From Chloroflexota bacterium (GTDB lineage: Bacteria; Chloroflexota; UBA11872): 64,000 nt of DNA. This document shows positions 23,066 through 25,977 of the stretch, piece after piece. Below the pieces are notes generated by a model. The model had not been told where the DNA came from, searched no databases, and saw only the letters and a list, made by a program, of their open reading frames with translations. The translations under genes were made by a program, and so were the position numbers. Where the stretch lies: contig OZ244789.1 in NCBI GenBank assembly GCA_965219705.1, positions 2,221,627-2,285,626 on the forward strand, in the 5' to 3' direction. The first letter of the stretch is position 1. The number at the start of each line of letters is the position of its first letter.

Positions 23066-24247
23066 TTGATGCCCCACCAGACCGAGCCGAGCGCCAACAA
23101 TGCCTTGGGCAGGCTGCTGCAGCGCATGTTGCCCGGCTGTGAGGTGCGGACCGAGCACACGCGCGTCATCGACGGGAAACCCGGCTTGCAGCCCGACATC
23201 CTCATCACCGCGGCCGGCCGCTCGCCGGTGGTGATCGAAGCCGAGTACGACCCTGCCGCCAGCGTCGAAGCCGAGGCCAAGTCCCGTCTGGGACTGGAGG
23301 TCGCGGCCCGGCCCATCGAGGCCGCCATTGCCCTGCGCTATCCCGCGGCGGTCGGCGCGGCCGCCGACCTCGACGCCGCGCTTGACGCCGCCCGCCTGTC
23401 CTATGCCGTGTTCACCCAGGAACGCAAGGAGAGCAGTCGCTTTCCCGAATCCGGCTGGCTGGACGGCTCGACCGTCGACTTGGCGGATCTGATTCGCCTC
23501 GTGTCGGTGCCGCACGGCGCGGTGGATGAGGCGGCGACAGAGTTGGAGTCCGGCATCGACCAGGCAGCCACGATTCTGGAAGAGGCGGCGAAGTTGCGGC
23601 CGGCCACCGGCTTCGCAATCGCCGGGCTGCTGGGCATGACCAACGTGCGCCAAACCTGGCGCATGGCTGGCGCCATCATCGCCAACGCCTTGATCTTCCA
23701 CGAGCGGCTGTCCGGCATGCATCCCGACGTCAAGCCGCTCGAGTTGCTGGGCGGTGGTCCCAGCAGCGACCTTAAGCGCGAGACGGTGGCGGCTTGGACT
23801 AACATCCTGGCCATCAACTACTGGCCCATCTTCGGCGTCGCCAGGGACATCGTCAGCCAGCTTGAATCGCTCGATGCGGCGCGCGTCCTACGCACGCTGC
23901 GTGGTACCGCCACCCAGATTCGAGCTAGCGGCGTCGACAACGCGCACGACCTCACCGGCCGCGTCTTCCAGCGCCTCATCGCCGATCGCAAGTATCTGGC
24001 GACGTTCTACACGCTGCCCCCGTCGGCGTCGCTGCTGGCGCGGCTTGCCGTGGCCAAGATGGAAGACGTGGATTGGTCCGACTCGGAAGCTATCGGCAAG
24101 CTGCGTGTCGCCGACTTCGCCTGCGGCACAGGTGCGCTGCTCTCCGCCGTCTATGAGCAGATCGCCGCCCGCCACGAGCGCGCCGGCGGCGACGCGGCGG
24201 CCCTTCACACCGTGATGATGGAGGAGATGCTCACGGTTGCGACGTGA
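23066..24247 (+). CDS. N-terminal part of an N6-adenine DNA methyltransferase / restriction-modification enzyme, carrying motif I; gene appears split by a frameshift
   Basis: 393 aa. Motif I (FxGxG) as RVADFACGTGALL lies 45 aa before the stop. N-terminal region contains a possible PD-(D/E)xK-like segment PDILITAAGRSPVVIEAEY. Stop TGA overlaps GTGATG at 24244..24249. Confidence 0.6.
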   Translation: MMPHQTEPSANNALGRLLQRMLPGCEVRTEHTRVIDGKPGLQPDILITAAGRSPVVIEAEYDPAASVEAEAKSRLGLEVAARPIEAAIALRYPAAVGAAADLDAALDAARLSYAVFTQERKESSRFPESGWLDGSTVDLADLIRLVSVPHGAVDEAATELESGIDQAATILEEAAKLRPATGFAIAGLLGMTNVRQTWRMAGAIIANALIFHERLSGMHPDVKPLELLGGGPSSDLKRETVAAWTNILAINYWPIFGVARDIVSQLESLDAARVLRTLRGTATQIRASGVDNAHDLTGRVFQRLIADRKYLATFYTLPPSASLLARLAVAKMEDVDWSDSEAIGKLRVADFACGTGALLSAVYEQIAARHERAGGDAAALHTVMMEEMLTVAT

Positions 24248-25977
24248 TGCCCTCGGCCATTCACATCACCGGCTCTACCCTCTCGGGAATTGAGCCCGCG
24301 GTCGGCTTTTGGAACTCCCGCCTCTACACCTTGGCCTACGGACGGCAGGATGATGGATCCGTTGCCATCGGCTCGCTGGAGCTACTGCAATCGCCAGAGG
24401 CCCTGACGCTGTTCAATACCAGTGACCCCGCCCGGCGCACCGGCAGTGCCGGCGAGGAAACCGCCGCCCAGATCGCCGCCGAAGTGCCCCACGAGAGCTT
24501 CGATCTTGTGATCATGAATCCGCCGTTTACCAAGAATACGAATAAAGAAGGAGCTTATGCCGGCACCTTTGCAGGGGCATTTGCCGCATTCAATTCCAGC
24601 AAAGCAGACCAACGAGACATGTCCAAGCGAATGTCAGTCTTAAGGAGACATACCTGCTACCACGGACACGCCGGTATGGGATCGGCATTTGCCGCCTTGG
24701 CGAACTTGAAGCTTAAGCCAGGTGGCATCCTAGCGTTGGTATTGCCGATGTCAGCCGCATCCGGCTATTCTTGGCAACGATTCCGCCAGATGCTAGCAAC
24801 CGGTTACTCAGAGCAACTTGTTCTGAGCATCGCTGCACACGGAGACGACATGTCATTTTCGGCAGATACCGGAATGGCTGACTGCCTGATCATTGCTCGG
24901 AAGAACAACATAGATAGCAAACATCACGGGCATTCGCGTTTTATATCGTTGCTTCGCCGCCCGCAGAGTTTTGCTCAAGCAAGCGTCATCGCAAGAGGCG
25001 CTTCCAATCTCGATGATCTACGGCAGATTGAAGATGGTCCGTATGGTGGGACACCAATAATGATTGGCAACCAATTGGTGGGAGAATGCATCGAGGTTTC
25101 CGGCGAGGCAAATGGAGATACCTGGGGCACGGTTCGCTTGCTGGACTATTCGTTGGCCCAGACCGCCTTTGCGCTAGGCCAGTCCAACTTGTGGTTACCG
25201 GGCAATGAAAACCCGGCGCCGCTGAGTGTGTCGCTACTTAGCGATCTCGGCGAGCTTGGTTATCACCATTTGGACATAACAGGATTACCATCGACAGGAC
25301 CGCCCCAAGGACCCTTCAGCAAGACGGCATACAGCCCGACCGCGACCTATCCATGCCTGTGGAATCACAACGCGAGGAACGAGACTCGGATGCTCTGCAC
25401 GCCAGACTCGCAGCTTGAAGTCAGGCGTGGAATGGAGGCCAAGGCTGCTTTGGTTTGGTCTACTGCAGGGCGCAGTCACCTGAATCTGGAGTTTACGTTT
25501 GGTTCACAACCGCTTGCTGTTTCGTTTACTGAGCAAGACACCATGGGTGGGCGTGTGTGGCCTAATGTGAATTTCCAGGACAAGCGAGCTGATTATGCTT
25601 TCGCTATATGGGGAAACTGCACTCTGGGGCTCTTGTCGTACTGGTGGCACGCAACTCGCCAACAGTCCAGCAAGGCCAACATCACGATCCGCTCTGCCGA
25701 ATCGCTGCCGGTTCTGGACTTTCGTACGTTCAGCGGGGAGCAACTGACGACCGCTGAGGCGATCTTCGAGGAATTCCGCGATAAGGAGTTTAAGCCGGCC
25801 TACCTCGCCGACGCCGATCCCAACCGCGCCCTGCTCGACGGCTACGTGATCTGCGACCTGCTCGGCTTCGACCAGACCATCTATGAAGGCGTCCGCCGCC
25901 TCTCCGCCAAATGGTGCGCGGAACCATCCGTCCACGGCGGCAAATCAAGGCCAAGCGGCAGCGATCTGATCTTCTAG
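24244..25977 (+). CDS. C-terminal part of the same N6-adenine methyltransferase, carrying motif IV NPPF and a compositionally foreign middle segment
   Basis: 577 aa. ESFDLVIMNPPFTKN (motif IV) about 90 aa from the start. Its reading frame is open upstream to 24157. GC drops sharply from about 24520 to about 25790. Confidence 0.6.
   Translation: MMPSAIHITGSTLSGIEPAVGFWNSRLYTLAYGRQDDGSVAIGSLELLQSPEALTLFNTSDPARRTGSAGEETAAQIAAEVPHESFDLVIMNPPFTKNTNKEGAYAGTFAGAFAAFNSSKADQRDMSKRMSVLRRHTCYHGHAGMGSAFAALANLKLKPGGILALVLPMSAASGYSWQRFRQMLATGYSEQLVLSIAAHGDDMSFSADTGMADCLIIARKNNIDSKHHGHSRFISLLRRPQSFAQASVIARGASNLDDLRQIEDGPYGGTPIMIGNQLVGECIEVSGEANGDTWGTVRLLDYSLAQTAFALGQSNLWLPGNENPAPLSVSLLSDLGELGYHHLDITGLPSTGPPQGPFSKTAYSPTATYPCLWNHNARNETRMLCTPDSQLEVRRGMEAKAALVWSTAGRSHLNLEFTFGSQPLAVSFTEQDTMGGRVWPNVNFQDKRADYAFAIWGNCTLGLLSYWWHATRQQSSKANITIRSAESLPVLDFRTFSGEQLTTAEAIFEEFRDKEFKPAYLADADPNRALLDGYVICDLLGFDQTIYEGVRRLSAKWCAEPSVHGGKSRPSGSDLIF

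What the first reader, a model, noticed from the sequence alone, without database searches (positions are those of the whole stretch)
23066..25977. N6-adenine methyltransferase catalytic domain split across two reading frames at a GTGATG/TGA junction
Motif I (RVADFACGTGALL) sits at the end of ORF 23066..24247 and motif IV (FDLVIMNPPF) at the start of ORF 24244..25977. A gamma-class MTase domain cannot be assembled from two separate polypeptides in this way, so the two ORFs are almost certainly one gene of about 970 aa interrupted by a frameshift. The second frame is open back to 24157, so a single indel anywhere in 24157..24247 would fuse them. The fused protein would have an N-terminal 300 aa with a possible PD-(D/E)xK-like motif (PDILI..VVIEAEY), an MTase domain, and a 450-aa C-terminal region. 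That is the architecture of single-chain Type IIG/IIL (MmeI-like) restriction-modification enzymes or BREX PglX-like proteins. The split could be a sequencing error, a decaying pseudogene, or a phase-variable/programmed frameshift switch, which is common in RM methyltransferases.
Basis: partly seen in the sequence, partly recalled or inferred. Interest (0 to 1): 0.75.

Follow-up and report, generated by a model that had tools for sequence, protein, structure and literature searches.

The report
Frameshifted restriction-methylase fusion gene
The two reading frames are one ~969-codon gene for a single-chain restriction-plus-methylation enzyme, broken by the loss of a single T. This is an ordinary dead gene or an assembly slip, not a regulatory switch.

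Summary

**One gene, one lesion**
- ORF1 (23069..24247) and ORF2 (24247..25977) are the two halves of one gene.
- Thousands of homologues are single 960-990-aa polypeptides. 77 of 80 species-representative genomes carry it in one frame.
- A strain with the same allele (L090) reads ATGCTCTACGG where the window reads ATGCTCACGG. One T is therefore missing between 24232 and 24233, in the Tyr389 codon of the LYGCD motif.

**What the protein is**
- A high-confidence AlphaFold model (pLDDT 91.7) aligns end to end with the Type IIG enzyme BpuSI.
- D43 and E57 are invariant, and position 59 is E or K (PD-x13-Ex(E/K)).
- This is an unannotated subfamily with no conserved gene neighbour. Its closest relatives are in Chloroflexota and are often multi-copy.

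**Consequence of the split**
- The invariant Asp392 of motif II is encoded by neither ORF, so the split products cannot rebuild the methyltransferase.

**Cause**
- There is no repeat tract, slippery site, stimulatory RNA fold or conserved split point. Phase variation and programmed frameshifting are rejected.
- A real recent inactivating mutation (slightly favoured) and an assembly error remain.
- Reads of the same strain exist in ERR13602196 and ERR13605531 and would settle it.

Interest is low.

The parts
23069..25977 (+). Whole disrupted gene: 969 codons plus stop once one base is restored. It encodes a Type IIG-like restriction-methyltransferase fusion.
   Evidence: The fused translation is 98% identical over 100% of its length to the intact 969-aa P0001 on the syntenic contig L001. 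More than 4,600 homologues were found, and the best 120 are all single chains.
23069..24247 (+). ORF1 (392 aa from ATG 23069; a TTG at 23066 lies one codon upstream). It holds the nuclease-like domain, the helical connector and methyltransferase motif I, and ends in the out-of-frame tail TVAT*.
   Evidence: It is identical to database protein P0391.
23069..23509 (+). Predicted PD-(D/E)xK nuclease-like domain (residues ~1-147). P42-D43 is at 23192-23197 and E57-A-E59 at 23237-23245.
   Evidence: D43 and E57 are invariant in 94 diverse relatives. E6 is present in 91 of 94. Position 59 is E in 77 and K in 15. The AF2 topology is a1(6-20) b1(24-28) b2(44-48) b3(54-60) a2(66-71) b4(85-91). There is no Pfam hit for this domain alone.
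23513..23983 (+). All-helical connector domain (residues ~149-305).
   Evidence: The AF2 model shows helices 149-305. It is collinear with the BpuSI helical connector, residues 175-289 (PMC3185434).
24113..24133 (+). Methyltransferase motif I, DFACGTG (SAM-binding loop).
   Evidence: D349, G353 and G355 are invariant. The motif aligns with motif I of BrxX/PglX.
24230..24243 (+). Damaged motif II region. The expected sequence CTC TAC GGT TGC GAC (LYGCD) reads CTCACGGTTGCGAC. One T is missing between 24232 and 24233. The Asp392 codon GAC is at 24241-24243.
   Evidence: L090 (same allele) has ATGCTCTACGGTTGC and L001 has GTGCTGTACGGGTGC. D392 is invariant in 94 sequences. ORF1 reads TVAT here and ORF2 starts after it.
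24245..24247 (+). TGA, the first stop in the shifted frame. It overlaps ATG 24247 by one base (TGATG).
   Evidence: GAC GTG ATG CCC encodes the invariant D392-V393-M394-P395, so the overlap follows from conserved coding sequence and is not a designed junction.
24247..25977 (+). ORF2 (576 aa from ATG 24247, which is Met394; GTG 24244 is an alternative start). It holds the rest of the methyltransferase domain and the C-terminal recognition-like domain.
   Evidence: It is identical to database protein P0393.
24517..24528 (+). Methyltransferase motif IV, NPPF (catalytic loop).
   Evidence: N484, P485 and P486 are invariant. Relatives pass the Pfam cut-offs for Eco57I PF07669 and N6_Mtase PF02384.
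25016..25974 (+). C-terminal domain (residues ~651-969), the presumed target-recognition domain. Its most variable stretch is residues ~631-720.

Best explanation
**What it is**

Window 23069..25977 is a single gene for a stand-alone Type IIG-like restriction-modification enzyme. Its domains, in order, are:
- an N-terminal PD-x13-Ex(E/K) nuclease domain,
- a helical connector,
- a gamma-class N6-adenine DNA methyltransferase,
- a C-terminal recognition domain.

**What happened**

In this genome the gene has lost one T from the Tyr389 codon (CTC TAC became CTC AC, between 24232 and 24233). This lies in the LYGCD strand between motif I and motif IV. Translation runs four wrong codons (TVAT) into a TGA.

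**Why the split products cannot work**
- The downstream part can only restart at Val393/Met394.
- The invariant Asp392, which in this enzyme class binds the SAM ribose, is therefore in neither product.
- The nuclease is separated from the recognition domain.
- Both methylation and restriction are expected to be lost together. That is a non-lethal way for a fusion enzyme to die.

**My reading of the cause**

I take this as a very recent inactivating mutation, that is, a young pseudogene.

**Shown versus inferred**
- Shown: one gene, the position and nature of the lesion, and the domain architecture at the level of sequence and predicted structure.
- Inferred: enzymatic activities, loss of function, and that the deletion is in the DNA rather than in the assembly.
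For: **One gene, one lesion**
- The best 120 homologues are single chains of 960-988 aa.
- 77 of 80 species-representative loci give a single in-frame match.
- The full-length architecture is kept down to about 33% identity across 1,238 clusters at E<=1e-30.
- Syntenic L001 carries an intact 969-aa gene. Within the gene, the only indel against the window is this one base.
- L090 carries the same allele (0-4 mismatches per 250 nt across 23000-27500) and reads CTCTAC at the site.

**Architecture**
- The AF2 model has pLDDT 91.7 and pTM 0.93.
- Foldseek: BpuSI at E 6e-16 over 1,087 columns.
- Motif residues are invariant.

**Loss of function**
- D392 is invariant and is absent from both ORFs.

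**Real mutation rather than error (suggestive only)**
- The site is not in a homopolymer or repeat.
- No other coding indel separates the three strains over 7.4 kb, except two further 1-nt insertions in L090. Both of those are also in this gene.
- Three other species have copies split at unrelated positions, so inactivation of this family does occur.
Against: - No reads were available, so an assembly or polishing error cannot be excluded.
- The gene shows no further decay: no second lesion, and the rest is 98% identical to intact P0001. That is what an error would look like, although a very recent mutation would look the same.
- The family is multi-copy in related genomes. Short-read Logan assemblies of the same strain break inside the 3' end of this gene.
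- Mis-mapped reads from paralogues could therefore concentrate consensus errors in this gene. That weakens the argument that all three indels fall in it, which is only about P=0.06 even under a uniform model.
- The nuclease and recognition functions are predicted only.
Confidence: 0.55

Rival explanations
1. Assembly or consensus error. The genome really carries an intact 969-codon gene, and one T was dropped when the contig was built or polished.
For: - It is a single 1-nt difference in an otherwise undamaged gene.
- The same allele in L090 reads CTCTAC.
- L090 itself has two other 1-nt insertions in this gene, so such singletons may be typical noise in these metagenome assemblies.
- The lesion lies in the block most conserved among paralogues: residues 301-420, and paralogues are about 100% identical over residues 120-420. 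Reads from other copies could be mis-mapped there.
- Independent Logan assemblies of the same strain break within the gene.
Against: - The site is not a homopolymer or simple repeat, which is the usual context of long-read indel errors.
- No other coding indel is seen in the 7.4 kb compared among three strains outside this gene.
- Only one copy of the family is seen in the 64-kb window. Whether the genome has paralogues is unknown.
Confidence: 0.38
2. Phase-variable or programmed switch. The frameshift is reversible (repeat slippage), or is bypassed by -1 ribosomal frameshifting to make the full-length enzyme at a low level.
For: - Phase-variable Type IIG genes exist. C. jejuni cj0031 is split into two annotated frames by changes in a G9 tract (PMC4889913).
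- A one-base deletion would need a -1 shift, which is the commoner direction of programmed frameshifting.
Against: - There is no homopolymer of 4 or more bases and no repeat within 24100-24350 other than TTTT at 24307 and GCGCGC at 24178. Tandem Repeats Finder finds nothing in the gene except a weak 12-mer at 23362.
- There is no X XXY YYZ heptamer in frame in 24150-24247.
- The downstream RNA fold is ordinary, z = -0.56.
- 77 of 80 relatives are in one frame, and the three other split copies break at residues ~100, ~684 and ~691, not ~389.
- Any slip away from the exact site would still destroy the LYGCD motif.
Confidence: 0.03
3. Functional split. The two ORFs are translationally coupled through TGATG and reassemble into a two-subunit enzyme, with nuclease and connector on one chain and methyltransferase and recognition domain on the other.
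For: - The stop and start overlap as TGATG.
- Split methyltransferases and separate R and M/S subunits exist in other RM types (general knowledge).
Against: - The cut falls inside the Rossmann fold, between motif I and motif IV.
- The invariant D392 and the LYGCD strand are in neither product.
- No homologue is split here. The window's closest relatives are intact or broken elsewhere.
- The TGATG overlap follows automatically from the conserved codons D-V-M-P.
Confidence: 0.03

Closest known systems
RM.BpuSI, and Type IIG/IIC single-chain restriction-modification enzymes of the Eco57I kind
   Same: - Same order of domains in one chain of similar size. BpuSI has a PD-(D/E)xK nuclease at 6-174, a helical connector at 175-289, a gamma N6A methyltransferase at 293-579 and a TRD at 580-876 (PMC3185434). 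Here the boundaries are about 1-147, 149-305, 310-650 and 651-969.
- BpuSI is the best Foldseek PDB hit: E 6e-16 with 1,087 aligned columns.
- The nuclease motif is PD-x13-Ex(E/K), against PD-x15-ExK in BpuSI.
- Relatives pass the Pfam Eco57I methylase cut-off.
- The gene stands alone.
   Different: - Sequence identity is only about 11%.
- Global TM-score is 0.35-0.38, so domain orientations differ.
- Position 59 is Glu in most members instead of Lys.
- Motif IV is NPPF, not NPPY.
- The PADLOC Type IIG model barely sees it, E 0.009.
- There is no Pfam or NCBIfam model for the N- or C-terminal domains.
- The C-terminal domain is unusually conserved across the family.
- No activity or recognition site is known.
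- In my recollection BpuSI is accompanied by separate methyltransferases. That was not checked here.
Type IIL enzymes MmeI and DrdV
   Same: - Single-chain nuclease-methyltransferase-TRD enzymes of 920-1,030 aa.
- The family profile hits DrdV at E 3.6e-5.
   Different: - No Pfam family other than MTS, Eco57I and Methyltransf_36 appears for the fused protein at E<=0.01, so no MmeI-family domain model is matched.
- MmeI itself scores only E 0.84 with the family profile.
- Foldseek aligns only about 700 columns to DrdV, against about 1,090 to BpuSI.
BREX PglX/BrxX methyltransferase
   Same: - It is the best sequence-level PDB match: motifs I-II, E 1.5e-6 with the family profile.
- Foldseek aligns about 1,040 columns at TMq 0.42-0.44.
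   Different: - No BREX partner genes are present and no conserved neighbour exists.
- The protein is about 240 residues shorter.
- It carries a conserved acidic PD..ExE/K triad at the N-terminus.
- The PADLOC PglX hit is marginal, E 0.001.
Phase-variable Type IIG gene cj0031/cj0032 of Campylobacter jejuni
   Same: A Type IIG fusion gene that appears in annotation as two consecutive ORFs because of a 1-nt frame change (PMC4889913).
   Different: There the switch is a G9 tract inside the gene. Here there is no tract of any kind at or near the lesion.

Membership tests
Type IIG/IIC single-chain restriction-modification enzyme (BpuSI/Eco57I-like) | N-terminal PD-(D/E)xK endonuclease domain | tested here: met
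   Met at the level of sequence and predicted structure only. P42-D43 and E57 are invariant, position 59 is E in 77 and K in 15, and E6 is present in 91 of 94. The model shows alpha-beta-beta-beta-alpha-beta topology with D43 at the start of b2 and E57/E59 in b3. The full-length alignment to BpuSI is collinear. No Pfam nuclease model hits the domain.
Type IIG/IIC single-chain restriction-modification enzyme (BpuSI/Eco57I-like) | Gamma-class N6-adenine DNA methyltransferase domain (motif I before motif IV, (N/D)PP(Y/F)) in the same chain | tested here: met
Type IIG/IIC single-chain restriction-modification enzyme (BpuSI/Eco57I-like) | C-terminal target-recognition domain shared by both activities | tested here: inconclusive
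   A confidently folded domain of about 320 residues follows the methyltransferase. Alignments to DrdV, MmeI, PglX and CamA extend past the catalytic core. Its fold was not searched on its own, and it is unusually conserved for a TRD.
Type IIG/IIC single-chain restriction-modification enzyme (BpuSI/Eco57I-like) | Site-specific methylation, and SAM-dependent cleavage at a fixed distance from the site | not testable with these tools
   This needs enzyme assays or methylome data.
Type IIG/IIC single-chain restriction-modification enzyme (BpuSI/Eco57I-like) | Intact reading frame in this genome | tested here: not met
   There is a 1-nt deletion between 24232 and 24233, and D392 is in neither ORF.
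Type IIL (MmeI family) | Sequence membership in the MmeI-family domain models | tested here: not met
BREX (PglX) | Encoded in a BREX operon with brxA/B/C, pglZ and brxL or equivalents | tested here: not met
   The window neighbours are an AAC(3) acetyltransferase and an unrelated 541-aa ORF. Across 84 loci no neighbour family occurs in more than 8 loci.
MADS (mad2 methyltransferase) | Full-length similarity to mad2, and the mad gene cluster | tested here: not met
   The PADLOC mad2 hit (E 1e-9) covers only residues 302-590, which is the methyltransferase core. No conserved cluster is present.
Phase-variable RM gene (contingency locus) | Homopolymer or short tandem repeat at the frame-switch site | tested here: not met
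   The site is CTC|ACGG, derived from CTCTACGG.
Programmed -1 ribosomal frameshift | Slippery heptamer plus downstream structure, conserved among homologues | tested here: not met
   There is no heptamer, the fold z-score is -0.56, and homologues are in one frame.

The most novel reading that the evidence does not exclude
The ~970-aa family may be a distinct single-protein defence family that has not been described. It would carry a PD..ExE nuclease fused to an Eco57I-type methyltransferase and a conserved C-terminal module.

Features that fit this reading:
- The family is expanded to several recombining paralogues per genome in Chloroflexota.
- A nearly identical island (23000-27500) has recently spread among strains whose flanks differ by 6-8%.
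- That island has been switched off independently at least twice, once in the window and once or twice in L090.

This would mean population-level on/off turnover of a costly enzyme by ordinary mutation rather than by a repeat tract.
Probability: 0.15. Interest if true: 0.45.

Novelty: new member of a known kind. Interest (0 to 1): 0.2.

Why it matters
- **Annotation.** The two ORFs should be merged and flagged as one disrupted Type IIG-like gene, not listed as two hypothetical proteins.
- **The family.** It has at least 1,238 clusters at 50% identity with E<=1e-30, no Pfam or NCBIfam model for two of its domains, and several mosaic paralogues in some Chloroflexota genomes. It is a reasonable source of new restriction specificities and a case of paralogue domain shuffling. 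This is an incremental addition to a well-known enzyme class.
- **If the deletion is real.** Together with the two lesions in L090, it documents rapid independent inactivation of a recently shared RM island.

Tried and rejected
- **First AlphaFold run.** It used 32 close homologues and gave pLDDT 52, so it was useless beyond the N-terminal domain. Fold matches from it were superseded by the run with 94 diverse sequences.
- **Family libraries.** Pfam, NCBIfam and PADLOC on the window sequence gave only sub-threshold methyltransferase hits. The N-terminal domain alone gave nothing, even at E<=10.
- **Partner gene.** I looked for a conserved neighbour such as a separate nuclease, BREX or MADS genes. 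None exists in 84 loci. A VapBC pair and a 569-aa helix-turn-helix protein flank the gene in about 8 loci only.
- **Downstream 541-aa ORF as a partner.** Rejected. It belongs to its own widely distributed family and sits in unrelated contexts. It shows no relation to the 569-aa neighbour family.
- **GC drop at ~24500 as a chimera junction.** Rejected as specific to this copy. A lower-GC 3' half is a family-wide trend, with means of 0.64 against 0.58.
- **Adjacent substitution at the lesion.** The alignment with L001 suggested a deletion plus a substitution. The same-allele sequence L090 shows it is a plain T deletion.
- **Independent confirmation of the deletion.** Exact look-ups of the ORFs failed. 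Two Logan contigs of the same strain stop about 1.6 kb short of the site. A scan of JGI metagenomes for either version of the junction found nothing.
- **Terminal inverted repeats around the 541-aa ORF.** None were convincing.
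Full report
**1. The observation**

The ORF list shows 23066..24247 (393 aa) and 24244..25977 (577 aa) on the + strand in different frames. The ORF1 stop TGA (24245-24247) overlaps GTG 24244 and ATG 24247. 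The second frame is open back to 24157, and codon 24154-24156 is TGA. Motif I (RVADFACGTG) is in ORF1 and motif IV (IMNPPF) is in ORF2.

**2. One gene**

A translation with one base restored (970 aa) finds more than 4,600 proteins. The best 120 are all single chains of 960-988 aa with 65-98% identity over 99-100% of the query.

A search without a word index against 1.84 billion cluster representatives finds 3,806 clusters at E<=1e-3 and 1,238 at E<=1e-30. The ~970-aa architecture is kept down to about 33% identity.

Among 80 loci from species-representative genomes, 77 give a single in-frame match. Three copies are split, but at residues ~100, ~684 and ~691, not at ~389.

**3. The lesion**

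- P0001 (969 aa, 98% identical) lies on contig L001, which is syntenic with the window. The gene order there is the methylase gene, a 541-aa ORF, an AP_endonuc_2 gene, a TPP enzyme, then Metallophos and AAA_23 genes.
- In the DNA alignment, the only indel inside the gene is one base missing from the window at the codon after Leu388.
- A third contig, L090, carries the same allele as the window: 0-4 mismatches per 250 nt across 23000-27500. It reads ATGCTCTACGGTTGC where the window reads ATGCTCACGGTTGC.
- The lesion is therefore a plain deletion of T between 24232 and 24233 in the Tyr389 codon.
- The junction is only the first stop in the shifted frame. It falls in the conserved codons Asp-Val-Met-Pro, so the TGATG overlap is incidental.

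**4. What the protein is**

- *Sequence libraries.* Pfam gives the window's fused sequence only sub-threshold Eco57I and MTS hits. More distant family members pass the curated cut-offs for Eco57I (PF07669) and N6_Mtase (PF02384). NCBIfam has no model. PADLOC gives generic Type II methyltransferase and mad2 hits limited to the catalytic core.
- *Model.* An AlphaFold model built on 94 diverse relatives has pLDDT 91.7 and pTM 0.93.
- *Foldseek against the PDB.* The Type IIG enzyme BpuSI ranks first (E 6e-16) with 1,087 alignment columns, which is end to end. CamA, BrxX/PglX and DrdV follow.
- *Domain order.* The predicted order matches the published BpuSI layout (PMC3185434): a nuclease-like domain at about 1-147, an all-helical connector at about 149-305, the methyltransferase at about 310-650, and a C-terminal domain at about 651-969.
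- *N-terminal domain.* It has the canonical alpha-beta-beta-beta-alpha-beta topology, with P42-D43 at the start of strand 2 and E57-x-E59 in strand 3. D43 and E57 are invariant in 94 sequences. E6 is present in 91 of 94. Position 59 is Glu in 77 and Lys in 15. That E/K alternation is what a PD-(D/E)xK site would show.
- *Neighbours.* No neighbouring gene is conserved. The most frequent neighbour families occur in 8 of 84 loci. The protein therefore works alone, as Type IIG and IIL enzymes do.
- *Limits.* Nuclease activity, methylation specificity and the role of the C-terminal domain are inferences.

**5. Consequence of the split**

ORF1 ends ...MMEEMLTVAT*, where relatives read ...MMEEVLYGCDVMPSA. 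ORF2 can start only at Val393 or Met394. The invariant Asp392 is therefore encoded by neither product. From established knowledge of Rossmann-fold methyltransferases, this is the motif II acidic residue that binds the SAM ribose. The cut also falls inside the catalytic fold and separates the nuclease from the recognition domain. A functional two-subunit enzyme is very unlikely.

**6. Cause**

*Phase variation and programmed frameshifting are rejected.*
- No homopolymer or short repeat lies at or near the site.
- There is no in-frame slippery heptamer.
- The downstream RNA fold is unremarkable, z = -0.56.
- The split point is not shared by any relative.
- By contrast, the phase-variable Type IIG gene cj0031 relies on a G9 tract (PMC4889913).

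*Two explanations remain.*

For a real, very recent mutation:
- The context is not a homopolymer.
- Among three strains compared over 7.4 kb, the only frame-breaking indels are three, and all fall in this gene. One is in the window and two are in L090: a T after 23425 that creates TAA, and a G after 24154.
- Three other species also have broken copies.

For an assembly error:
- The gene is otherwise pristine.
- The lesion sits in the block most conserved among paralogues.
- The family is multi-copy in related genomes.
- Two Logan short-read assemblies of the very same strain break inside the 3' end of this gene. Read mis-assignment is therefore plausible.

I put about 0.55 on a real pseudogene and about 0.38 on an error. 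The window's ORFs are identical to database proteins P0391, P0393 and P0396, which lie on a 3,377,360-bp contig held by NCBI and ENA. Reads of the same strain are in ERR13602196 and ERR13605531, and mapping them would decide the question.

**7. Population context**

- Between the window, L001 and L090, the flanking genes differ by 6-8%. The block 23000-27500 (this gene plus the 541-aa ORF) differs by about 1% or less. This suggests recent transfer or a sweep of the block.
- Within the gene, a patch at about 23700-24280 separates L001 from the window/L090 allele. It holds 29 synonymous and 11 non-synonymous changes, which looks like a recombination tract from a functional relative.
- Paralogues within one genome are mosaics. 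P0018 and P0026 are about 100% identical over residues 120-420 and about 60% identical in the C-terminal half.
- The best 80 species-representative loci are nearly all Chloroflexota MAGs (Dehalococcoidia, Caldilineaceae). Up to three copies occur per chromosome, and tandem pairs occur in L060 and L074.

**8. Verdict**

The exotic option it raised, a switch, does not. What remains is an ordinary broken gene or an assembly slip, in a member of an unannotated subfamily of a well-known enzyme class. I rate the novelty as a new member of a known kind, and the interest as low.

Noticed in passing
window 26024-27649 (+); also L084 6001-7614 and 8917-10533; L087, L088 and L089 6001-7626: The 541-aa ORF just downstream has GC about 0.50 against 0.67 for the window, and no Pfam, NCBIfam or PADLOC hit. 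It belongs to a family of ~540-aa hypothetical proteins (45-57% identity) found in many phyla, including Nitrospira, Pirellulales, Hydrogenedentes, Desulfuromonadales and Armatimonadetes. Its genomic contexts are unrelated to each other. In L087-L089 it sits between two fragments of a MobC gene, and L084 has two copies. It behaves like a single-gene mobile element of unknown type. I found no convincing terminal inverted repeats.
   Followed up: partly
window 23000-27500 against flanks 22250-23000 and 27750-29780: The block holding the methylase gene and the 541-aa ORF is about 99% or more identical among three strains (window, L001, L090) whose flanking core genes differ by 6-8%. This suggests recent horizontal spread or a sweep of the block at the same chromosomal site.
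   Followed up: partly
window 23700-24280: This is a patch of high divergence from L001: 36 mismatches in 24000-24250, mostly synonymous. L090 shares the window's version of it. It looks like a recombination or gene-conversion tract inside the gene, and the T deletion lies near its 3' end.
   Followed up: partly
L090 3098-3991 (equivalent to window ~23425 and ~24154): In the independent contig L090, the same allele carries two other 1-nt insertions in this gene: CGC[T]AAGG, which creates a TAA, and TAT[G]GAG. There are none in the neighbouring genes. These are either independent inactivation or assembly noise.
   Followed up: partly
window 24500-27500: GC falls from about 0.67 to 0.50-0.58 across the 3' half of the methylase gene and the 541-aa ORF. 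GC3 falls from about 0.85 to about 0.5. For the methylase gene, a lower-GC 3' half is a family-wide tendency, with means of 0.64 against 0.58 in 75 loci.
   Followed up: yes
window 20218-22042 (IS110 transposase ORF 20459-21439, - strand) and 22044-22979 (- strand): An IS110-family transposase gene (DEDD_Tnp_IS110 plus Transposase_20) and an aminoglycoside 3-N-acetyltransferase gene lie just upstream. L090 has a DUF559 gene where the window has the IS110 segment, so this is a variable spot.
   Followed up: no
L060 8001-10892 and 11106-13973; L074 8001-10859 and 10975-13830; contigs OZ250155.1, OZ253474.1, OZ253466.1: Related Chloroflexota genomes carry two or three copies of the family, sometimes in tandem. 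Paralogues in one genome are mosaics: about 100% identical over residues 120-420 and about 60% identical in the C-terminal half.
   Followed up: partly
L091 and L092 (window 25803-30593 and 25810-27743): Two Logan assemblies (ERR13602196, ERR13605531) are 100% identical to the window. Both end within 8 nt of each other inside the 3' end of the methylase gene. This hints at a repeat or strain-variation boundary there.
   Followed up: no
window 5269-5356 and 13912-13995: Two tRNA genes are the only Rfam matches in the window at gathering score.
   Followed up: no
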